The notes beneath the pieces are model-generated. The model saw only the letters and a list, made by a program, of their open reading frames with translations. It made no database searches and was not told where the DNA came from. The translations under genes and the position numbers were made by a program. Shown here one piece after another: positions 15,522 through 39,782 of a DNA stretch of 48,227 bases (position 1 is the stretch's first letter; each line of letters begins with the position of its first letter). Source of the stretch: a candidate division WOR-3 bacterium (GTDB lineage Bacteria > SDB-A); contig JAFGSQ010000049.1 in the NCBI GenBank assembly GCA_016934535.1, positions 1 through 48,227 of the forward strand, given 5' to 3'.

Positions 15522-17459
15522 ATGAAAATTCTGTCGTTTTTGATCTTCTTCATGACAGCGTTGTGTTTGAATTCGCAGGTTCCGGATGTATTAATAAATG
15601 AATTCGCTCCAAAAGGCACTGAATGGGTCGAACTCTACAACACTACATCAGACCCGATAGATTTGACAGGTTGGAAATTGACTTCTGCAGTTGACGGGGA
15701 TTCTTTCATGATAACCGGCACAATTGGCGCCAATTCTCTGTTTTTATGCAGTATATCGACAGCCATAATGGACAATGACGGGGATTCGGTCTTTCTTTAT
15801 AAACCCGGAGATACTCTGGTGGATCATGTCGCTTTCGGAGACGTTGGACCGGCGCCTGTTTCAATAACAACATGGTCAACGGCAAGAATAACTGACGGTT
15901 ATTGGTCGGGAAGCATGGCGCGGGATTTCAACATCGACGCCACGCCGACTCCTAACGCGCCGAATGACGCGAAACCAGCCCCGCTCGACGGCTATCTTAT
16001 TATTAATGAAATAGATCCCTTTCCAACTGCGGGCAACGATTCAATCGAGCTCCTCAACCTTTCTTTCACCGATACAATAAATACCTCGGGCTGGGTGATA
16101 TCTGACGGTGATGAAGTCGACACGCTCTTCGAGCACATAATTCCTCCGAGGTCGTTTCTCGTAATTGATGAAGCCGAATTCGGATTCGATTTCGCCGCTC
16201 AAGATGTTTGCTATCTTTTTTCGCCCGACACTTCGAGGCGGGATCAACTCGGTTGGGCAGGTGAGTATAACGATTTTTCAATCCAGAGAATACCGAACGG
16301 CGGCGGACCAAATGACGGTTACAACTGGGCATCATCTGGAGGCGGCACTTTCATTTTCGACACGACGGCCACTTGGGGTGCTCCGAACGGTTTCACAACC
16401 ATCACTTTGGATTTCCCCGCTGGAGGCGAAACTCTGTATTCAGGCGACACAGTTTCAATTTCGTGGACGGGTAATGCAATGGCTTACGATCTGTTTATAA
16501 GTTACGACGGCGGATTTAACTGGGAAATGGCAGGAGATTCGGTACTTTCATCTCCGCTTTTGTTTGAAATACCAAGAATCCCTTCGAATCAATGTCTTGT
16601 TTCCATTTTCAGCAATATAGACTATTTTTTTTCCGACACTACGGGCAGTTTTTTTTCGATTATAGACTCCCTCCCTTTCGGAGACACAATAGAGGTCTAT
16701 TACGATTCATCGGCGGCGACAGACTACTATCACTGGACTACAGCTGACTGCGGATCAGGCATGAGACTGACTGCGCCCCTTCAAAGGGGGCCGTTCAGAC
16801 TCATAGGTGCGAAATACATGCTTTCCGACGCTTCTGTCGGAAATAACATTTTCGACTGCAAAGTATTCCGGTGGGCAGGAACCGAACCGGGAACCGAAGA
16901 ATTTACTCAGAAAGACACTTTTCCTGTTCTCGGAACACCCCAATGGTATACAGTCGATGTAACTCATCAGGGAGTTACCCTGGAAACCGGTGAAGATTTC
17001 GTAGTCTGCATATTCTACGACGGAGTAAACCAGCCGGGTTGGGGATTTTACACCCAGACCAATGACAGAGCATGGGATTACGACGCTGGATGGTCTTTGT
17101 GGCCTTCTGAAATGTACTGCATTAGGGCTCTTCTCGCGGATATGAATGGCGTCGTTGAGGAGATAGGGGAGGGAATTGAAATCGATTTACCAAAATTATT
17201 CTTTTCTGAAGCACTTTTCGGCAACGGAACTTATATTTCGTACGCTTTGCCTGTTTCAGGCAGGGTCGTCATAAAAATTTTCGACGTCACGGGCAGAGAA
17301 GTGAGAACACTTCTGGACAGGTTCGAAGAGCCTGGATTGAGGCACATTCCCTTCGACGGCAGGGACGAAGAAGGATATCTTTTGTCGAAAGGTGTGTATT
17401 TCTGCAGAATGGAAAGCCCATCGGGGAACATGTCCTGTAAAATATCAATTGTCGAATAA
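15522..17459 (+). CDS. Secreted protein with two lamin-tail domains and a T9SS-A/FlgD-Ig-like C-terminal domain
   Basis: AAGGAGG RBS and signal peptide. VLINEF..EWVELYN..IDLTGWKL and LIINEI..DSIELLN..SGWVISD. C-terminal IKIFDVTGREVRTL..FDGRDEEG..GVYF. Confidence 0.88.
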   Translation: MKILSFLIFFMTALCLNSQVPDVLINEFAPKGTEWVELYNTTSDPIDLTGWKLTSAVDGDSFMITGTIGANSLFLCSISTAIMDNDGDSVFLYKPGDTLVDHVAFGDVGPAPVSITTWSTARITDGYWSGSMARDFNIDATPTPNAPNDAKPAPLDGYLIINEIDPFPTAGNDSIELLNLSFTDTINTSGWVISDGDEVDTLFEHIIPPRSFLVIDEAEFGFDFAAQDVCYLFSPDTSRRDQLGWAGEYNDFSIQRIPNGGGPNDGYNWASSGGGTFIFDTTATWGAPNGFTTITLDFPAGGETLYSGDTVSISWTGNAMAYDLFISYDGGFNWEMAGDSVLSSPLLFEIPRIPSNQCLVSIFSNIDYFFSDTTGSFFSIIDSLPFGDTIEVYYDSSAATDYYHWTTADCGSGMRLTAPLQRGPFRLIGAKYMLSDASVGNNIFDCKVFRWAGTEPGTEEFTQKDTFPVLGTPQWYTVDVTHQGVTLETGEDFVVCIFYDGVNQPGWGFYTQTNDRAWDYDAGWSLWPSEMYCIRALLADMNGVVEEIGEGIEIDLPKLFFSEALFGNGTYISYALPVSGRVVIKIFDVTGREVRTLLDRFEEPGLRHIPFDGRDEEGYLLSKGVYFCRMESPSGNMSCKISIVE

Positions 17460-17473
17460 ACACGGAGGAATAT

Positions 17474-18676
17474 ATGAAAATCATTAATTTCGCTTTTCTT
17501 ATCCTTTTTGCGACTGTTATTTCGGCTCAGATTCCTCAGGTTGTAATAAACGAGTTCGCTGCCAAAGCCAATCCGGAATGGATTGAAATTTACAATACAA
17601 CCTCTTCGCCCATAGATCTTTCCGGTTGGTGTTTGATAAACACTCCGAACGACACTACTTTTCTTTCAGGAACGCTGGCCGGAAATGCTTATATGCTCGT
17701 TACACTTTCTTCATCTCAACTAAGTAACGACGGAGATATTATATCGCTTGCAAATTCTGCAGGAGACACTGTTGACTACGCAGGATACGGGACGAGAGGT
17801 CCTGCTCCTGTCGGTATATACAATTCAAACAATCCCGCCTTCAGCACTGCAAGAATAACTGACGGCTGTTACACTTCTCCAAACAACGGCCGAGATTTCA
17901 ACATAGACGGAACTCCGACACCGGGAACGGCGAACGATGCTCATCCGGCGCCTCTGAATGCTCAGGTTTCAATAAACGAACTGGACCCTTATGGGGGGAC
18001 TACTGTTTACGATTCTGTTGAATTGTTCAACTCTACCTCTTCCGACATAGATGTTGGCGGCTGGTTTATCTCCGACGGAGACGACTTTAAAGTTATTACA
18101 GGAACTCAGATAGTTCCCGCGAACGGATTTCTTGTTATAGACTCAAGCGATTTCAGCGGCGTCAATTTTACGAACGTCGATGTATGTTATCTCTTTATGG
18201 CCGACACGCAGAGAGTTGATCAACTTGGATGGTACAGCGATTCAAGCGAATATACATATCAACGTGTACCTGACGGCGGAGGTCCTCACGACGGATATAA
18301 CTGGGTAACCTCGGGAGGCGGAACCACGCTTTTCGACAAGATAGAAACCTGGGGCGAAACGAACGGAACTGTTCACGTCGTCGAAGAAACACCTGATGCA
18401 GTATTTCCCGAAGGATACTTCCTTGCCTGCCCATCTCTTTCAGGAAGAGGCGGAATTGAAGTGTCTTTTATGGCTCCCGGAGATTTTACCCTCGGAGTGT
18501 ATTCTCTGGACGGAAGACTTGTGAAAGAAATGTTTACCGGCAGAACCGAAAACCGATCATATTTAACATGGGATTTAAGCGACAGTGAAGGCAGACCGGT
18601 ATCACAGGGTCATTACATTTTGATGTTGTCCGACGACGATCAAAGAATATCTATTAAACTCGAAGTTATATACTGA
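17474..18676 (+). CDS. Secreted protein with two lamin-tail domains and a FlgD-Ig-like C-terminal domain (paralog of the upstream gene)
   Basis: GGAGG RBS and signal peptide. VVINEF..EWIEIYN..IDLSGW and VSINEL..DSVELFN..DVGGWFISD. C-terminal VYSLDGRLVK..WDLSDSEGRPVSQGHY. Confidence 0.88.
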   Translation: MKIINFAFLILFATVISAQIPQVVINEFAAKANPEWIEIYNTTSSPIDLSGWCLINTPNDTTFLSGTLAGNAYMLVTLSSSQLSNDGDIISLANSAGDTVDYAGYGTRGPAPVGIYNSNNPAFSTARITDGCYTSPNNGRDFNIDGTPTPGTANDAHPAPLNAQVSINELDPYGGTTVYDSVELFNSTSSDIDVGGWFISDGDDFKVITGTQIVPANGFLVIDSSDFSGVNFTNVDVCYLFMADTQRVDQLGWYSDSSEYTYQRVPDGGGPHDGYNWVTSGGGTTLFDKIETWGETNGTVHVVEETPDAVFPEGYFLACPSLSGRGGIEVSFMAPGDFTLGVYSLDGRLVKEMFTGRTENRSYLTWDLSDSEGRPVSQGHYILMLSDDDQRISIKLEVIY

Positions 18677-33296: not shown

Positions 33297-35123
33297 TCAA
33301 ACTCCGAGGTATTCCAGCTCTTTTTCATGTATGAACTGATTTTTATACAGCTTATAGTATCTGCCTCGTGATTTGATCAGATTGCCATGAGTTCCCTGTT
33401 CGAGTATTTTTCCGTTTTCAATGAGGACTATTCTGTCCACCGATGTTATTGTCGAAAGCCTGTGAGCTATTATTATGCTTGTCCTTCCGTGCATAAGTTT
33501 CTTAATGCCTGTCTGAATGAGTTTTTCTGTCTCCGTGTCGACAGAAGAAGTCGCTTCATCGAGAATAAGTATTTTGGGATCACTCAGAAGCGCTCTCGCC
33601 AGCGATATAAGCTGTTTTTGTCCTACTGACAGAAATCCACCGCCTTCTCCGACTTCGGTTCTGTATCCGTTGTCCAGTTTGTTTATAAATCTGTCGGCGA
33701 AGACCGCATGTGCCGCTTCTCTGATTTCATTTTCTGCCGCCTCAAGTTTTCCGTATCTTATGTTATCTGAAATAGTACCGCTGAAAAGGTGAGGTGTTTG
33801 AAGCATGACACCTATGTTGGATTGAAGCGTATGAAGACTCATTTCTTTGTAATCTTTCCCGTCGATGAGAATTTTTCCTGATACGGGTTCATAAAATCTG
33901 CAGACAAGACTGGCGATTGTTGTTTTTCCTGAACCGGTTTCACCTACCAGAGCTACGCTTTCTCCTTCATTTACCTTGAAGTTAAAGTTTTCGAGAATTG
34001 AATATCCTGTGCCGTATCTGAAGAAGACGTTTATAAATTCGACCTCCCCTTTTATCTTGTTTGAAGAGGATAGATTCATAGAATCTGTCTGAGTAGCGAG
34101 TACTTGGGGCGAATCTTTTATTTCGGGTTCAACGCCGAGAAGAGAAAAAACTCTTTCAGCCGACGCCTGGGCGTTTTGAAATTCGGCGAAAATCCTTGCG
34201 AGTTCCTGAACGGGTTCAAAAAACCTGATCGAATAGGATATGAAAGCCACCAGAGTTCCGTACGTGATAAAGCCGGCAGTTACTGATGTTCCGCCATAAA
34301 TAACTGCGATTGCGGTGCCGGCGCTCGATATGAACAGGACAACAGGCAAATACATGGAAGAACGCAGAGCGGCCGTGAATGACGCTTTGAACATCTTGCC
34401 GGTCAGTCCTTTAAATTCGGCGAGGTTTTCAGTTTCTCTGACCAGAGTCTTGGTCGTCTTCGCACCTGTTATCCCCTCGTTGTACGAACCGGTAATCTGC
34501 GAGTTTATTTTTCTGACAGACCTGTAGCTTTTGAGTATCAGTTTTTGGAATTTGAAGCTGATATATACAAGCACCGGCACAGTCACCAGAACTGATAAAG
34601 CGATTTTCCAGTTCAGATAAAACATTATAAAACTTATTGCTGTCATCATTGTCAGACCCCAGATGAGATCCACAAAACCCCACGCGAAAGTGTCGGCGAT
34701 TCTTTCGACGTCTGATGTCATTCTTGCCATTAACCATCCCACCGGCGTTTTGTCAAAATACGAAAAAGACAGCGATTGAAGCTTGTCGAAGGCTGATTTT
34801 CTTATGTCGTAACACATCCACATATCTATCCTGCCGGCCAGGGCGATAAGCAGAAAAACATTGACGCTTTGAAAAAGGACCAGAATAGTATAAAGGAGCA
34901 CGAATTTGACTACGAAAGTGAAATCTCTGGCTATGATAAGCCTGTCAATGGCGTATTTTGTCATGAGAGGGAACACGGCATCAATCAAAGCGACAAATAT
35001 CATGACGACAAATAGAAAGAATACGAGTTTTGAATAAGGCTTTGAAAAACCGAGAACTTTTTTCCAGAGCTCAGGCCTGAAAACCTTTGTGAATTCTTCT
35101 TCCCGGAATGAATATTCATTCAT
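33297..35123 (-). CDS. ABC exporter, fused permease/ATPase (subunit with consensus Walker B)
   Basis: ATG 35123 after AAGGAGG. Transmembrane domain plus GETGSGKT, LSVGQ, ILDEATSSVD and IAHRLS. Confidence 0.95.
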   Translation of the reverse strand: MNEYSFREEEFTKVFRPELWKKVLGFSKPYSKLVFFLFVVMIFVALIDAVFPLMTKYAIDRLIIARDFTFVVKFVLLYTILVLFQSVNVFLLIALAGRIDMWMCYDIRKSAFDKLQSLSFSYFDKTPVGWLMARMTSDVERIADTFAWGFVDLIWGLTMMTAISFIMFYLNWKIALSVLVTVPVLVYISFKFQKLILKSYRSVRKINSQITGSYNEGITGAKTTKTLVRETENLAEFKGLTGKMFKASFTAALRSSMYLPVVLFISSAGTAIAVIYGGTSVTAGFITYGTLVAFISYSIRFFEPVQELARIFAEFQNAQASAERVFSLLGVEPEIKDSPQVLATQTDSMNLSSSNKIKGEVEFINVFFRYGTGYSILENFNFKVNEGESVALVGETGSGKTTIASLVCRFYEPVSGKILIDGKDYKEMSLHTLQSNIGVMLQTPHLFSGTISDNIRYGKLEAAENEIREAAHAVFADRFINKLDNGYRTEVGEGGGFLSVGQKQLISLARALLSDPKILILDEATSSVDTETEKLIQTGIKKLMHGRTSIIIAHRLSTITSVDRIVLIENGKILEQGTHGNLIKSRGRYYKLYKNQFIHEKELEYLGV

Positions 35124-36978
35124 AAATTGCCTCCTTTGTTCTCGAAGGCGTTTCGCCAAAAACATCTTTTTCGAACTCGGATTGTATTTCCCATACTCTT
35201 TTGTAAAGACCTTGTTCTCTGATCAACTCTTTGTGAGTGCCCGACTGAACTATCGAGCCGTTTTCCATAACGAATATCCTGTCGGCGCTTGAAATAGAGG
35301 ATATCCTGTGGGATATTATCAGAGTCGTTCTTCTTCCTTTTCTACCAATGAGAGCGCTTCTGATTCTGACGTCTGTTTCGGAGTCGAGTGAACTGAAGGA
35401 ATCGTCGAAAATCAGCACAGGAGGGTCTTTCAGAAGAGTTCTCGCAATGGCTATCCTCTGCTTCTGACCGCCTGAAAGAGTCACTCCTCTTTCGCCGACG
35501 AGCGTGTCGTATCCTTTCTCGAAGGACAGTATGACGTCATGGATGGCCGATAATTCAGATGCTTTGTGCAGTTCGTCGTCGGATGTGACTTTTTTTCCCA
35601 TCAAGAGATTTTCTCTTATTGTCTTGGAGAACAAAAAAGGTTCCTGCAGGACTATGCCGATGTTTTTTCGTATATGATGAAGATCTGTGTCTTTTAACTC
35701 TCTGCCGTCAATCAGGATCGAACCCTTGGAGTAATCGTAAAGCCTGGGAATGAGACTTACCAAAGCTGTTTTCCCCGAGCCCGTCGGTCCTATAAGCGCG
35801 ACAGTCTGTCCCTTTTTGATCCTGAAAGAGACCCCTCTCAGAGCCGGTTCAGAAGATTTTGGAAAATAATACCAGACGTCTTTGAATTCAATGTCACCCA
35901 TGACATCAAAGTCTGAAATTCGGGTTTGATCAGGTAAGACGGTGTTGTTTTCGGCTATCAAGTACTCTGTTTTTTCGGCGAGAATTTCATTTACTCTTTC
36001 AACGGATACGAACGTCTTTCCCATGTCCGTGATTATCCTGCCCATCTGCCTTATTGGCCAAAGAAGAAGATTTTCGTAGGTCACGAAAACCACGAGAGTT
36101 CCAATAGACAAATTTCCGCCAAGAGCCATTTTTACACCGACAACCGTGACGAGTGCTATTTGTGCCATACAAAGCAGGTCCGACGATGACCAGTAGAGGG
36201 ATAATAATATTATAAGTTTGTAAGTCAGATCTCTGAAAGATGTATTCTTTTCATCGAATTTCTTGACCTCAAATTCCTGTCTCGCGAAAGCTCTGACAAT
36301 CCTAATGCCGGTCAGGTTTTCCTGAAGCATTGATGAAAGCACTCCTTCGGACTCGTCCGAAATTTTGAAAGCCTTTTTTACCTTGACGAAGAACAGAACC
36401 GAAAAACCGAAAATCACGGGGATGATGAGCATGGAGTACAAAGTCATTGTGGTGTTCAAATTTATCATAATCGGCAAAACGAGACCGAGCATTACCAGGG
36501 CTCTTCCAACTTCAATAAACTGAACTGAAAAAAACCTTCTTATGGTTTCGACGTCCGAAGAGCATCTTTGTATTAAATCACCCGTTTTGACTGCCGTGTG
36601 ATAAGAAAAAGGCAGGTACTGGATGTGGTTGTACAGTCTGTTTCTCAGGTCTCTTGTCGCTCCTTCAGATGATTTTGAAGAAAGAGTCCCCTTTAGTAAA
36701 GTAAAAATTCCCTGAAAAAGAGTCGCCGTTATGAGCAGAACTCCGGCGAAGTAAAGATTGCTGCTAAGAGGACTCTTTCCGTTAAAGAAGAATAGATTTC
36801 TGACAAAAAACGGAATTTGAGCCTCGTTCCTGCCTATTGTAAAGTCAATGACGTGTTTTATTATCAGAGGAGTCAAAAAACTGAAGACTGCGGCAAGGGA
36901 CATACATACTATGGATAAGAAGAACGGAATGCGATGCCCTCTCATAATATTATTCATTTGTTTTATTTTATCGAACAT
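35116..36978 (-). CDS. ABC exporter, fused permease/ATPase (subunit with degenerate Walker B)
   Basis: Transmembrane domain plus GPTGSGKT, LSGGQ, IFDDSFSSLD (D in place of the catalytic E) and ISHR. The pair resembles heterodimeric type IV exporters. Confidence 0.95.
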   Translation of the reverse strand: MFDKIKQMNNIMRGHRIPFFLSIVCMSLAAVFSFLTPLIIKHVIDFTIGRNEAQIPFFVRNLFFFNGKSPLSSNLYFAGVLLITATLFQGIFTLLKGTLSSKSSEGATRDLRNRLYNHIQYLPFSYHTAVKTGDLIQRCSSDVETIRRFFSVQFIEVGRALVMLGLVLPIMINLNTTMTLYSMLIIPVIFGFSVLFFVKVKKAFKISDESEGVLSSMLQENLTGIRIVRAFARQEFEVKKFDEKNTSFRDLTYKLIILLSLYWSSSDLLCMAQIALVTVVGVKMALGGNLSIGTLVVFVTYENLLLWPIRQMGRIITDMGKTFVSVERVNEILAEKTEYLIAENNTVLPDQTRISDFDVMGDIEFKDVWYYFPKSSEPALRGVSFRIKKGQTVALIGPTGSGKTALVSLIPRLYDYSKGSILIDGRELKDTDLHHIRKNIGIVLQEPFLFSKTIRENLLMGKKVTSDDELHKASELSAIHDVILSFEKGYDTLVGERGVTLSGGQKQRIAIARTLLKDPPVLIFDDSFSSLDSETDVRIRSALIGRKGRRTTLIISHRISSISSADRIFVMENGSIVQSGTHKELIREQGLYKRVWEIQSEFEKDVFGETPSRTKEAIYE

Positions 36979-37122: not shown

Positions 37123-37198
37123 CTGCACCTCACCGCTAAAAAGTGAATTATAGATGATTTAACAAAATAAATTTTTTGTCAAGCGTTTTTTGAAGGAG

Positions 37199-37224
37199 AA
37201 ATGGCACGGACCACCGTGCCATTT
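37199..37224. terminator. Intrinsic terminator-like hairpin after the Omp28-like gene
   Basis: AAATGGCACGG-ACCA-CCGTGCCATTT, an 11-bp stem immediately past the stop codon at 37227. Confidence 0.65.
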
Positions 37225-37226
37225 TT

Positions 37227-38276
37227 TTATATCATTTTAGCTACGATTTTCGAGATTCTCTTGCCTTCACATGCAAGTTCTATTCTGTACATTCCCGCAG
37301 AAAGTTCTTTTCCGGATTCGTCCCTTCCGTCCCAGCTAAGAATATGATTTTCAATGAAAAGATCGCCGGAAGAAAATCTCCTGACTGCTCTGCCGGTCAT
37401 GTCATAGACAGTCACCGTGACATTTGCAGAGTTTTCAGCGTAGACCGGAAGAAATAGAACTGATGCAAAAGGGTTAGGATAGGGATTGCCGAGGTTAAGG
37501 AGAATGGGACCGTTGTTGGGAGTTTCTTCAACTCCTACAAAACCGGATATGTCTATATTTTCGCTCTGATGAATTTGCTTGTCTGAAACAGTGAATGTCT
37601 GGAGGCATACTATAAAATAGACGTCGTCAGGTTCGAAATTCCACCAGGAGGAGGAAAATGTGAAAGGGATATCGATCAAAAGTGTTTCAGGATAAATACC
37701 GGAAAAAGTAATTGGAGTTCCGTTGAAATCCGGGAACATCTTTCTCGCCGGTCTGTGAAATTCTGAAAAAATCCCCCAACTGTGCGGAACCAGATGTGAA
37801 ACGGCTGCGATATAAAGATAGTAAGGGGGAGCGCCAAGATCCTGTTCTGCAATGATTGTCACGTTTAGAATTCCCGACATGAGATCTGGTTCAGCTGTTC
37901 CTTCAAGGAATAAAGTCACGTAACAGGACTCTGCCATGGCTCTCGAATAAGCCAGGTTCAGGGCTGAAAGAGAAGTCGGGGAAAACAGGGGGCATCCGTC
38001 CATACTTGCTACAGGTATGTAAGAGCCTCCGTAAAACTGGAATCTTCCCCAGGCGTCCGGGTTGAAAAGGGGTTCGCCGGATTCTACCTGGTACTTTAAA
38101 GCGCTCAGGCTTTCCTGATTGTCTTCAATGAACGTGTTCTGCAGTCCTGCAGAAGTTGCGCAGTCAATTCAAGTGGCTCCGCTGAATATTTCAAGCAGAG
38201 GTTTTCTTACGGCACTGAACAGCGAAACAGCCAAAAGCATATAAACGATGAAAAGAAAAAAACGCTTGGCAATCAC
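37227..38276 (-). CDS. Putative selenoprotein: secreted Omp28-like thioredoxin-fold protein (UxxC) with a T9SS-A/FlgD-Ig-like C-terminal domain, 349 aa
   Basis: AAGGAGG-4 nt-GTG at 38276, in frame with ORF 37227..38003. It translates MIAKRFFLFIVYMLLAVSLFSAVRKPLLEIFSGAT[TGA]IDCATSAGLQ..YIPVASMDG. The only interruption is TGA at codon 36 (38169-38171), followed by a SECIS-like hairpin. C-terminal GVEE..YPNPF..VYDMTGRAVR..WDGRDESG..SAGMY. Confidence 0.85.
38137..38154 (-). promoter_or_regulatory. Candidate bacterial SECIS element
   Basis: mRNA UUCUGCA-GGAC-UGCAGAA. The stem starts 14 nt after the UGA, and the apical loop begins with G 21 nt after it. Confidence 0.75.
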
Positions 38277-38372
38277 TTTTCCTCCTTATTATACCTTGTA
38301 TATTTATGAGAAACAGGAACTTATGTCAATGTCAAAATTATATAAGCATCCCTTTGCATGGGGTTACAAAAT

Positions 38373-39782
38373 TCACTTTCGTGACACAAATTCACGCAAC
38401 AGTAATGCCGTGTTTATAATTCGCATTTTAACTGATGACATCATGTACAACAGAGCAAAACCGAGGGGTTTTGCTCTGCTTTCATCGACCCAGGAGAGAG
38501 GTATTTCGGCAGTCAATCTAAGAAATCCTGTCAAGGCGAATAAAATCTGTTCAGGCTCGAGGTTCAACCGGGCATGTTTCAAAGCAGGCGGCATAAAAGC
38601 ACCGGATAAAAGAGCGCTGACGACTATGCCGAGTGCTGTAAAAGCGCCGAATATGCCCGAATAAACCTGGTTTTTCCCTTTGGGAGATATAGAAAGCACG
38701 AAGTTAGTGAAGATAATGTTCGTCGCAGACCACATAATCCCAGAAGTTACAGCTTCGATGTAAATCAGCCAAAAATTACTTTTGTTTAGAAAAATCCAGA
38801 CCAGGGGATTTAAACCGCCCAGTATAACTGTAATCCTCATCGTCGTCTTGTTGCCGAACCTGTCTATAAAACGACCCCAGTATCTCAATGATATGACGGA
38901 TGATATGACGCTGACAGTCCCGTATATCTGAATTAAAAAAAGATTCATCTTCAGTTTCTGGATCATGAAAGGAGTCCAGAAAGGTGACCCGACACCTATG
39001 GCCAGAGTAAACCACGTCGCAAATAGAAGGAGTTTTAAAAAATTTCTGTCGCGGAAAGGGGAAGAGAATGTCTCCGAAAGCTTCTCGGGGAAGTTTTTTT
39101 TCGTTTTTTCAATTTGCTTCGACAGTATCTTGGCGCTAATCAGGCCGGATACAGCCGCAATTGCGAAAATCGCGGCAAAGGCGTAAACTAGATTTTCGGT
39201 CTTGAAAAATGAGGAAAGGAATTCCGAATACCCCCTTATTCTTGCAAAAACCGAACCGTCGGATTCGAAAAGGTCGAAGGCGAGACTGAAAACAAATCCT
39301 GTCAATAGCGCAGTTACCATGAGAAACTGAGTTCTGTACGAGAAAAATCTCCCTCTTATTCTCTCAGGTATGAGGTCGGCGATCCAGGAGATCCATATAT
39401 TTCCAGCCGCGGCCTGAACTGCGGTGACTGAAAAAAAGAGCAAAGCGAACAGAAGGCGAGACATGGAATCGGACATTAAAAAAGGAATAACGCCGAATAA
39501 AAGTGTGGCTGATCTGCTGTAATAAAGCATTTTGACGAGAATAGATTTTCGGGTCGAAAGTTTCCTCGTTATGACGAAACCGAGAGGCTGAAAGAGCTGT
39601 GAAAGTTGACCTATGGCTGTCAACAGGCCAAAATAAAACGGTCCGGCTCCCAGAAAAATTGCGAACTTTGTCACAAAAATACTGCCGGGCGCCGACAGAG
39701 ATGAGTATATCTGTGCGAATACGCCTTCTGTGAACGAAATTTTCACGAGAGAGGCGCTTGATTTTATTTTTTCTTTTTCCAT
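38373..39782 (-). CDS. MFS transporter
   Basis: About 12 hydrophobic segments, WIADLIPERIRGRFFS, PFRDRNF and WGRFIDRFGNK (MFS motif A-like). Confidence 0.9.
   Translation of the reverse strand: MEKEKIKSSASLVKISFTEGVFAQIYSSLSAPGSIFVTKFAIFLGAGPFYFGLLTAIGQLSQLFQPLGFVITRKLSTRKSILVKMLYYSRSATLLFGVIPFLMSDSMSRLLFALLFFSVTAVQAAAGNIWISWIADLIPERIRGRFFSYRTQFLMVTALLTGFVFSLAFDLFESDGSVFARIRGYSEFLSSFFKTENLVYAFAAIFAIAAVSGLISAKILSKQIEKTKKNFPEKLSETFSSPFRDRNFLKLLLFATWFTLAIGVGSPFWTPFMIQKLKMNLFLIQIYGTVSVISSVISLRYWGRFIDRFGNKTTMRITVILGGLNPLVWIFLNKSNFWLIYIEAVTSGIMWSATNIIFTNFVLSISPKGKNQVYSGIFGAFTALGIVVSALLSGAFMPPALKHARLNLEPEQILFALTGFLRLTAEIPLSWVDESRAKPLGFALLYMMSSVKMRIINTALLLREFVSRK

What the first reader, a model, noticed from the sequence alone, without database searches (positions are those of the whole stretch)
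37227..38276. Hidden secreted selenoprotein candidate: Omp28-like UxxC thioredoxin fold with a T9SS-like sorting domain
Seen: the ORF called from 38003 extends in frame 91 codons upstream to a GTG with AAGGAGG and a classic signal peptide. The only interruption is one TGA at codon 36, in LLEIFSGAT-U-ID-C. Known: thioredoxin/Omp28-like domains have E-x-F-(x4)-C-x-x-C after the first strand and a later Pro loop (here YIPVASMDG), and selenocysteine usually replaces the N-terminal Cys of CxxC. The TGA is at exactly that position. Inference: a 349-aa selenoprotein that is exported and carries a surface-sorting C-terminal domain, i.e. selenol-based redox chemistry outside the cell. Gene callers would truncate it or call it a pseudogene. 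selA/B/C/D are not in this window. I cannot tell from the sequence whether this family has already been catalogued.
Basis: partly seen in the sequence, partly recalled or inferred. Interest (0 to 1): 0.92.

Follow-up and report, generated by a model that had tools for sequence, protein, structure and literature searches.

The report
Surface-exported thioredoxin-like selenoprotein gene
The apparent stop codon inside this gene almost certainly encodes selenocysteine in the active site of an exported, thioredoxin-like surface protein that public annotation cuts short, but it is a divergent relative of a selenoprotein group predicted in 2008, so it is solid rather than surprising.

Summary
GTG 38276 with AAGGAGG opens a 349-codon frame on the minus strand, interrupted only by TGA at codon 36 (38171-38169).

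The TGA is almost certainly selenocysteine (Sec).
- In 14 TGA-bearing and 7 Cys-bearing homologues it falls on the first Cys of an invariant CxxC.
- All 6 genomes of the taxonomic family hold a TGA form, including syntenic orthologues.
- A hairpin follows the TGA in 11 of 14 Sec forms and in 0 of 7 Cys forms.
- The genome has selA, selB, selD and tRNA-Sec.

The predicted fold is a thioredoxin domain plus beta-sandwich, like Porphyromonas HBP35 (Z 25.5), followed by a type IX secretion (T9SS) tail. PorU and SprA are present.

It is not a new kind. NCBIfam NF045500 'Omp28-related selenoprotein' is 'hypothetical protein GOS_C' of Zhang & Gladyshev 2008 and has the same UxxC motif. This branch scores far below that model's cut-off. 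Public collections hold only the truncated 258-aa product. This scan met the same kind in at least 10 other genomes.

Interest is modest.

The parts
37227..38276 (-). Full selenoprotein gene: 349 codons plus the TAA stop. GTG start, one in-frame TGA.
   Evidence: Orthologues and paralogues share the same frame and the same TGA.
38281..38287 (-). Shine-Dalgarno sequence AAGGAGG, 4 nt upstream of the GTG
   Evidence: Read directly from the sequence.
38211..38276 (-). Signal peptide, residues 1-22. It has K4/R5, a hydrophobic core, and FSA before V23. There is no lipobox Cys.
   Evidence: Read from the translation. AlphaFold2 models a helix over residues 2-20. No signal-peptide predictor was run.
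38169..38171 (-). TGA, codon 36: predicted selenocysteine, the N-terminal residue of the UxxC redox motif
   Evidence: It aligns with the first Cys of CxxC in 7 Cys forms and with TGA in 13 other Sec forms. The family profile's CxxC aligns with the thioredoxin CxxC.
38160..38162 (-). TGC, Cys39: the resolving Cys of UxxC
   Evidence: Invariant column in alignment A1.
38137..38154 (-). SECIS-like hairpin UUCUGCA-GGAC-UGCAGAA, starting 17 nt after the U of UGA. It has a 7-bp stem and a G-rich 4-nt loop.
   Evidence: It scores -7.4 kcal/mol. Hairpins of -6.2 kcal/mol or better occur in 11 of 14 Sec forms and 0 of 7 Cys forms.
37926..38207 (-). Thioredoxin-like domain, residues about 24-117. It includes invariant E29, U36, C39, P69, Y82, P88 (the cis-Pro position) and D93-G94.
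37533..37925 (-). Beta-sandwich domain, residues about 118-248. Together with the thioredoxin domain it forms the HBP35/DUF1223-like module.
   Evidence: 5y1a gives Z 25.5 and rmsd 2.2 A over 223 residues (model residues 21-251); 2axo gives Z 19.3.
37230..37502 (-). T9SS type A C-terminal sorting domain (FlgD_ig / Por_Secre_tail), residues about 259-349
   Evidence: TIGR04183 scores 31.4 bits against a cut-off of 23. PF13860 scores 35.7 against 27, and PF18962 scores 26.9 against 27. The PorU C-terminal domain (6za2) matches at Z 11.3.
37195..37228 (.). Terminator-like GC-rich hairpin directly after the stop codon
   Evidence: One search lists it for the + strand. On the gene's own strand the stem is followed by a weaker T tract.
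38001..38003 (-). ATG (Met92), where gene callers start the truncated 258-aa product
   Evidence: That exact 258-aa sequence is in public collections (NCBI, NCBI nr, Logan).

Best explanation
This is one gene for a 349-residue selenoprotein.

Shown by comparison:
- UGA at codon 36 stands where Cys-form homologues have the nucleophilic first Cys of a thioredoxin CxxC motif.
- A stem-loop follows it at the spacing used by bacterial SECIS elements.
- The genome has selA, selB, selD and tRNA-Sec.

From this I infer that SelB and Sec-tRNA read the codon as selenocysteine (about 0.9).

Inferred from domains and fold (about 0.65): the protein crosses the inner membrane by its signal peptide and the outer membrane by the type IX secretion system. 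PorU then removes its C-terminal domain, and the protein ends up attached to the cell surface, as HBP35 of Porphyromonas gingivalis does.

Inferred by analogy with HBP35, whose CxxC gives thioredoxin activity in vitro (about 0.5): the U36-x-x-C39 pair does thiol/disulfide exchange outside the cytoplasm. The selenolate attacks a substrate disulfide and C39 resolves the selenenylsulfide. The substrate and the source of reducing power are unknown.
For: 1. Sec/Cys column. 14 TGA forms and 7 Cys forms share E-x-[FHYM]-x4-[U/C]-x-x-C, and R24, E29, C36, C39, P69, Y82, P88, D93 and G94 are invariant in the 16-row alignment A1.
2. Phyletic spread. All 6 genomes of the taxonomic family (G000-G005) have at least one TGA form. 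The unrelated G040 has four among the loci fetched, and one search lists a fifth at G040:C10 that I did not align. G007 has one. The same-genus genes in G002 and G003 sit between the same two neighbours as the window gene.
3. Coding constraint exists on both sides of the TGA.
4. Hairpin. 11 of 14 Sec forms have a hairpin of -6.2 kcal/mol or better starting +12 to +19 after the UGA. This counts C43b's hairpin at +18, seen in the fold; the best stem that one search lists for that gene starts at +4. The best among 7 Cys forms is -3.4. The window's stretch folds at -12.6 kcal/mol, z -1.82.
5. Sec machinery. selD scores 361 bits and itself holds a TGA. selA scores 505 bits and selB 309 bits. tRNA-Sec with a UCA anticodon lies next to selA-selB.
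6. TGA is a normal stop elsewhere in the genome.
7. Fold. Mean pLDDT is 86. HBP35 (5y1a) matches at Foldseek E 9.4e-12 and at Z 25.5, and DUF1223 (2axo) at Z 19.3. The family profile's CxxC and Pro align with the CxxC and the cis-Pro position of solved thioredoxins 1fo5 and 1nw2.
8. T9SS. The C-terminal domain hits the sorting-domain models. The genome has PorU at 479 bits (cut-off 420), SprA at 428 bits (cut-off 200) and a PorV-like gene next to PorU.
9. HBP35 shows C48/C51-dependent insulin reduction, surface A-LPS attachment and dependence on its C-terminal domain (passages of PMC2907840).
Against: - There is no direct evidence of selenium incorporation or of expression.
- The three members of one Sec sub-clade (G001:C93, G000:C51, G002:C63) have only a weak 4-5 bp hairpin, -1.8 to -2.1 kcal/mol.
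- The window hairpin alone is not striking: 10 of 200 shuffles fold as well.
- The syntenic orthologue in G003 carries an extra TAG in place of a Trp codon. The gene may therefore be dispensable or decaying there, or that assembly has an error.
- The window copy sits on a longer branch (0.43) than its clade mates (0.16-0.23).
- Pfam's own T9SS tail model is 0.1 bit under its cut-off, and the PorV-like gene is under its cut-off.
- The redox function rests on analogy only. HBP35 also binds hemin through its non-thioredoxin part.
Confidence: 0.82

Rival explanations
1. The gene is a pseudogene. The TGA is a simple nonsense mutation or a sequencing error, and only the 258-aa product starting at ATG 38003, or nothing at all, is made.
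For: Gene callers and public collections list only the 258-aa product. The G003 orthologue has an additional TAG.
Against: The TGA is kept at the same column in 15 genes of 8 genomes, counting G003 and G007. That column is Cys in the Cys forms. The sequence upstream of the TGA is under purifying selection. A product starting at Met92 would lack both the signal peptide and the active site, although the secretion tail is kept.
Confidence: 0.03
2. The UGA is decoded, but not as selenocysteine. It might be Cys or Trp by near-cognate read-through, or it might be a regulated stop that releases a short leader peptide.
For: No direct chemistry is available. One sub-clade has only weak hairpins.
Against: The full Sec machinery is present. 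TGA is the commonest stop in the genome. The hairpin tracks the TGA forms and is missing from the Cys forms. The exchange of U for the nucleophilic Cys in a CxxC motif is the pattern listed for many UxxC selenoprotein families (Table 1 of PMC13188914).
Confidence: 0.04
3. The gene does encode a selenoprotein, but its main job is binding rather than catalysis. It would be a surface receptor for hemin or a metal or metalloid, with the Sec/Cys pair as a ligand or a redox switch.
For: HBP35, the closest solved structure (Z 25.5), binds hemin and is needed for growth when hemin is scarce. Weak sequence matches include the copper-resistance proteins ScsC and CopC-like.
Against: HBP35's hemin binding maps to M135-P344 and survives the C48S/C51S mutations, so it does not involve the CxxC. 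The columns conserved here are the thioredoxin catalytic ones. Identity to HBP35 is only 14%.
Confidence: 0.15
4. The gene does encode a selenoprotein, but it works as an oxidant or isomerase (DsbA/DsbC-like). It would form or shuffle disulfides in other exported T9SS cargo, rather than reduce external substrates.
For: The hbp35 gene complemented an E. coli dsbA mutant, as cited in PMC2907840. The genome encodes some 40 proteins with the same kind of C-terminal domain. DsbA-like and DsbG-like selenoproteins are listed among predicted families.
Against: A protein carrying a T9SS tail is expected to leave the periplasm. The fold search gave no DsbA-type helical insertion: the best matches are HBP35, DUF1223 and plain thioredoxins.
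Confidence: 0.15

Closest known systems
'Hypothetical protein GOS_C' (Zhang & Gladyshev 2008, PMC2398784), which is NCBIfam NF045500 'Omp28-related selenoprotein'
   Same: Both are predicted bacterial selenoproteins with a thioredoxin-like fold, a single Sec in a UxxC motif, many Cys homologues, and a SECIS-like hairpin after the UGA (passages). 11 of 16 members of the family studied here show homology to NF045500 over the thioredoxin and beta-sandwich part.
   Different: Scores are 20-63 bits against a cut-off of 200. The window protein and its closest relatives give no hit at all. No locus in the own genome or in 61 genomes reaches the cut-off. In the passages I read, the 2008 paper does not mention a T9SS tail or Omp28.
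HBP35 (35-kDa hemin-binding protein) of Porphyromonas gingivalis, PDB 5Y1A
   Same: The architecture is the same: signal peptide, thioredoxin domain with CxxC, beta-sandwich and T9SS C-terminal domain. The structural match is Z 25.5, rmsd 2.2 A over 223 residues. HBP35 is a surface, A-LPS-linked T9SS cargo with CxxC-dependent thioredoxin activity.
   Different: HBP35 has Cys, not Sec, and identity is 14%. Its hemin-binding role is unproven here. A residue-by-residue match of C48/C51 to U36/C39 was not printed by any search; only approximate ranges were.
Omp28 family (Pfam PF11551; NCBIfam NF033782 'Omp28 family outer membrane lipoprotein')
   Same: 6 of 16 family members hit each model, with best E 7.1e-15 and 1.1e-17.
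   Different: The window protein does not hit either model at E up to 1. It has a signal-peptidase-I type leader without a lipobox Cys, read from the sequence.
DUF1223 (PF06764; Atu2684, PDB 2AXO)
   Same: It has the same two-domain module with CxxC: Z 19.3 over 201 residues. The sequence profile matches at E 1.3e-4, with the CxxC aligned.
   Different: It has no T9SS tail, its function is unknown, and the solved protein has no Sec.
Sec-containing thioredoxins, glutaredoxins and DsbA/DsbG-like proteins
   Same: UxxC replaces CxxC in a thioredoxin fold (Table 1 of PMC13188914).
   Different: Those are small cytoplasmic or periplasmic single-domain proteins. This one has an added beta-sandwich and a surface-sorting tail.

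Membership tests
Bacterial selenoprotein gene (SelB/SECIS-dependent UGA recoding) | In-frame UGA aligned with Cys in homologues, with conservation on both sides | tested here: met
Bacterial selenoprotein gene (SelB/SECIS-dependent UGA recoding) | Stem-loop shortly downstream of the UGA with G in the apical loop. The spacing rule of about 16-37 nt to the loop is recalled from the bSECISearch model and comes from no call. | tested here: met
   The hairpin starts at +17 and the GGAC loop at +24. Hairpins of this kind occur in 11 of 14 Sec forms and 0 of 7 Cys forms. Binding to SelB was not tested.
Bacterial selenoprotein gene (SelB/SECIS-dependent UGA recoding) | selA, selB, selC and selD in the genome | tested here: met
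   Searches are all over their cut-offs. One search shows tRNA-Sec with a UCA anticodon, split over two contig ends.
Bacterial selenoprotein gene (SelB/SECIS-dependent UGA recoding) | Selenium found in the protein | not testable with these tools
   This needs 75Se labelling or mass spectrometry.
NCBIfam NF045500 Omp28-related selenoprotein (GOS_C) | Score of at least 200 bits against the model | tested here: not met
   The window protein gives no hit at E up to 1. The best relative scores 63.3 bits. Nothing in the own genome is over the cut-off.
NCBIfam NF045500 Omp28-related selenoprotein (GOS_C) | One Sec in a UxxC motif of a thioredoxin-like fold | tested here: met
   The motif for NF045500 is taken from Table 1 of PMC13188914.
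Pfam PF11551 Omp28 | Hit to the model | tested here: not met
   The window protein gives no hit at E up to 1, although 6 of 16 relatives hit. It belongs to the superfamily but is not a member by score.
Thioredoxin-fold oxidoreductases | CxxC at the start of helix 1 after strand 1 | tested here: met
   The model has strand 27-32, U36/C39 and helix 37-52. The profile's CxxC aligns with the CxxC of 1fo5 and 1nw2.
Thioredoxin-fold oxidoreductases | Conserved Pro before strand 3 (the cis-Pro loop) | tested here: met
   P88 is invariant and aligns with the Pro of 1fo5. Cis geometry was not checked.
HBP35-like surface thioredoxins | Thioredoxin domain plus beta-sandwich module followed by a T9SS C-terminal domain | tested here: met
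   Z 25.5 over model residues 21-251. The C-terminal domain matches PorU's at Z 11.3 and PorZ's at Z 9.0.
HBP35-like surface thioredoxins | Hemin binding and insulin-reductase activity | not testable with these tools
   These are known for HBP35 only.
T9SS cargo | Type A C-terminal sorting domain | tested here: met
   TIGR04183 scores 31.4 bits against a cut-off of 23. PF18962 scores 26.9 against 27, just under.
T9SS cargo | T9SS machinery in the genome | tested here: met
   PorU scores 479 bits (cut-off 420) and SprA 427.8 bits (cut-off 200). The PorV-like gene scores 123 bits (cut-off 250) and lies next to PorU. The PorK/L/M/N genes were not searched.
T9SS cargo | N-terminal Sec-type signal peptide | tested here: inconclusive
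   It was read by eye and is conserved in all full-length homologues. No predictor is available here.

The most novel reading that the evidence does not exclude
This is a distinct Sec-bearing branch of the Omp28/HBP35 superfamily, expanded to four Sec paralogues in one 2.2-Mb genome. The T9SS delivers these proteins to the cell surface and anchors them there, where the selenol does extracellular redox chemistry, for example on external disulfides, polysulfides or metalloids. My four literature searches found no paper describing a selenoprotein as T9SS cargo. On this reading, Sec has been gained or lost several times within the superfamily; the tree needs 2-3 changes.
Probability: 0.15. Interest if true: 0.55.

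Novelty: new member of a known kind. Interest (0 to 1): 0.3.

Why it matters
It corrects an annotation. Public collections hold only the 258-aa stump, which lacks both the signal peptide and the active site. The same error affects the three other Sec paralogues in this genome and the relatives in the other genomes searched.

It also shows that NCBI's model for 'Omp28-related selenoprotein' misses a whole branch of T9SS-tailed relatives, so selenoproteome counts for these uncultured anaerobes come out too low.

In biology, it points to selenol-based thiol/disulfide chemistry on the outside of the outer membrane. That could be tested with HBP35 as a guide. The kind of protein, the motif and the recoding mechanism are all already known.

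Tried and rejected
- **Locus search with the wide alignment.** The search for related loci with A1 failed because no stretch was conserved enough. It was repeated with the closer alignment A2 and found 4 loci in two named MAG records.
- **tRNA-Sec by ARAGORN.** It found no tRNA in L001 or L002 because the gene is split over contig ends. Infernal showed it instead.
- **Rfam over 37900-38400 at E up to 10.** There was no SECIS family, only three chance-level matches.
- **NF045500 in 61 genomes.** No match was over the cut-off, so no true member was available to align.
- **Sequencing runs.** No RNA holder was listed. Nothing was laid from X1 (the possible source) or from the RNA run X6. Contigs of X2 and X3, from a second study, cover the whole gene at under 90% likeness and show no insertion or deletion inside the coding region. 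The table of differences was cut before 38169-38171, so the state of the TGA there is unknown.
- **Paper searches.**
  - 'Omp28' with 'selenoprotein': 0 papers.
  - 'selenoprotein' with 'Por_Secre_tail': 0 papers.
  - 'selenoprotein' with 'type IX secretion': 1 unrelated paper.
  - 'selenoprotein' with 'HBP35': 0 papers.
  - Two broad searches gave nothing useful.
- **Neighbouring genes.** The two ABC exporter genes downstream are generic: best match MsbA-like at 380-427 bits against a cut-off of 602, and CydD at 253 against 435. They give no link to thiol export. The upstream membrane protein hits no NCBIfam model.
- **Global TGA reassignment (codes 4 or 25).** Rejected.
- **Supplement not seen.** The GOS_C sequences are in supplementary Dataset S2 of PMC2398784, which was closed. 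A direct alignment of this protein with GOS_C was therefore not possible.

Full report
**Observation.**
On the minus strand, AAGGAGG (38287-38281) is followed after 4 nt by GTG (38276-38274). A 349-codon frame then runs to TAA at 37229-37227. Its only interruption is TGA at 38171-38169, codon 36, in LLEIFSGAT-U-ID-C. A mechanical ORF list gives only the 258-aa frame from ATG 38003. That truncated product is exactly what public collections hold.

**Is the TGA a selenocysteine codon?**
The read-through protein finds three more N-terminal-domain paralogues with one in-frame TGA in the same genome: C43:8369-9166, C51:9603-10610 and C43:3122-3358. One paralogue has none (C56:17539-18465). About 40 other matches cover the C-terminal tail only.

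Among 61 genomes, every one of the six in the same taxonomic family (G000-G005) has a TGA form. An unrelated genome, G040, has several. G007 has one.

I extracted 21 genes, 14 with TGA and 7 without. All share E-x-[FHYM]-x4-[U/C]-x-x-C, with the TGA on the first Cys of CxxC. In the 16-row alignment A1 the invariant columns are R24, E29, C36 (U or C), C39, P69, Y82, P88, D93 and G94.

The 15 codons before the TGA show 167 synonymous against 143 non-synonymous codon differences, over 28 pairs of 8 sequences. They are therefore translated in this frame.

TGA closes 573 of 1066 long open frames in the genome, so the code is not reassigned.

The Sec machinery is complete:
- selD scores 361 bits and itself holds a TGA.
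- selA scores 505 bits and selB 309 bits, and they lie side by side.
- A tRNA-Sec with a UCA anticodon lies just upstream of them, split across the ends of contigs C11 and C67.

I did not re-test it.

**SECIS.**
Seventeen nt after the U of the UGA lies UUCUGCA-GGAC-UGCAGAA (38154-38137), at -7.4 kcal/mol. A hairpin of -6.2 kcal/mol or better starts at +12 to +19 in 11 of the 14 Sec forms. For C43b this is the +18 hairpin seen in the fold, because the best stem one search lists for that gene starts at +4. The stems have different sequences in different clades. None of the 7 Cys forms has such a hairpin; their best is -3.4.

Three points count against this:
- The three members of one Sec sub-clade have only a 4-5 bp stem.
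- The window's stretch alone is unremarkable (z -1.82; 10 of 200 shuffles fold as well).
- Rfam has no matching family.

**What the protein is.**
Pfam and NCBIfam see only the C-terminal T9SS type A sorting domain in the window protein. Relatives link the N-terminal part to three families:
- Omp28: 6 of 16 hit PF11551, and 6 of 16 hit NF033782.
- DUF1223: 6 of 16.
- NF045500 'Omp28-related selenoprotein': 11 of 16, at 20-63 bits against a cut-off of 200.

AlphaFold2 with the 16-row alignment gives mean pLDDT 86. The model has a thioredoxin-like domain (strand 27-32, helix 37-52 and onward), a beta-sandwich (120-242) and a C-terminal beta domain (260-347).

The best solved match is HBP35 of Porphyromonas gingivalis (5y1a): Foldseek E 9.4e-12, and Z 25.5 with rmsd 2.2 A over 223 residues. 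Next is the DUF1223 protein 2axo at Z 19.3. The tail matches the C-terminal domains of PorU (Z 11.3) and PorZ (Z 9.0).

A profile of the N-terminal module aligns its CxxC and its conserved Pro with the catalytic CxxC and the cis-Pro position of solved thioredoxins.

The genome encodes PorU and SprA over their cut-offs, and a PorV-like gene next to PorU.

**Mechanism.**
HBP35 is a T9SS cargo attached to surface A-LPS. Its C48/C51 pair reduces insulin faster than E. coli thioredoxin does. Its hemin binding maps elsewhere in the protein (passages of PMC2907840).

By analogy, I take the window protein to be exported by its signal peptide and then by the T9SS, and to carry out thiol/disulfide exchange outside the cytoplasm. 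U36 would be the attacking residue and C39 the resolving one. The Sec decoding rests on comparative evidence. The localisation rests on domains and machinery. The chemistry rests on analogy only, and the substrate and electron source are unknown.

**Evolution and context.**
- In a tree of 19 rows, the seven Sec genes of this taxonomic family form one clade (support 91/95) beside Cys clades. Two fragments and the TAG-broken G003 gene were left out. Overall the tree needs 2-3 Sec/Cys changes.
- The window copy has the longest branch in its clade (0.43 against 0.16-0.23).
- The same-genus genes in G002 and G003 lie between the same membrane-protein gene (76-77% identity) and ABC exporter gene (70%). 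They are therefore positional orthologues, although only 58-60% identical.
- The G003 orthologue has TAG where the others have a Trp codon. That is either decay or an assembly error.
- The neighbouring ABC exporters are generic and give no functional link.

**Comparison with what is known.**
A 2026 review lists 'Hypothetical protein GOS_C' with domain NF045500, motif UxxC and one Sec (Table 1 of PMC13188914). Zhang & Gladyshev 2008 found GOS_C as 74 TGA-containing sequences with 312 Cys homologues, a thioredoxin-like fold, a UxxC motif and a SECIS-like hairpin. They inferred a thiol-based redox function (passages of PMC2398784).

The kind is therefore known. The window protein is a divergent relative that fails the NF045500 cut-off, so I do not file it as a member.

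The superfamily is very large: 13,051 representatives at E up to 0.001. Among the 150 best hits, 15 begin just after the CxxC position, as truncated calls of Sec forms would. I did not check their DNA.

I found no paper that links selenoproteins with T9SS, Omp28 or HBP35.

This scan has already reported the same kind in at least 10 other genomes, with the same conclusions. I reached mine before reading those notes.

**Verdict.**
This is a real selenoprotein gene that is mis-annotated, and it is a new member of a known kind. Interest is modest.

Noticed in passing
G000:C43:3107-4138, G000:C43:8333-9169 (runs to the contig end), G000:C51:9603-10610; Cys form at G000:C56:17539-18465: The same 2.2-Mb genome holds three more TGA-xx-Cys paralogues of this family and one Cys paralogue. 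The Cys paralogue lies about 5.5 kb from selD (C56:23941-24861).
   Followed up: partly
L040:1657-1659 (G003:C10): The syntenic same-genus orthologue keeps the TGA and the hairpin, but has TAG where relatives have TGG (Trp). This is either a nonsense mutation or an assembly error.
   Followed up: partly
G000:C11:3-82 and G000:C67:1-84: The tRNA-Sec gene (anticodon UCA) is split over two contig ends that overlap, directly upstream of selA-selB. ARAGORN misses it for that reason.
   Followed up: yes
L069 (G040:C14:76986-81737): Four tandem paralogues of the family lie in an unrelated genome: three with TGA and one with Cys at the same column.
   Followed up: partly
window 33297-36978 (-) and 38373-39782 (-): Downstream lies a pair of ABC exporter genes that overlap by 50 nt. 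They are MsbA-like and below all curated cut-offs. Upstream lies a 469-aa multi-pass membrane protein with no NCBIfam hit. The membrane protein and the first ABC gene flank the orthologue in G002 and G003 too.
   Followed up: partly
window 17250-17414 and 18482-18652 (+): Two more genes in the window end in the same kind of T9SS C-terminal domain (weak hits).
   Followed up: no
G002:C63:24-311 and G002:C30:6664-7446: One clade-B Sec gene is split over two contigs. Its C-terminal part is in NCBI as a partial 'T9SS type A sorting domain-containing protein' labelled candidate division WOR-3.
   Followed up: partly
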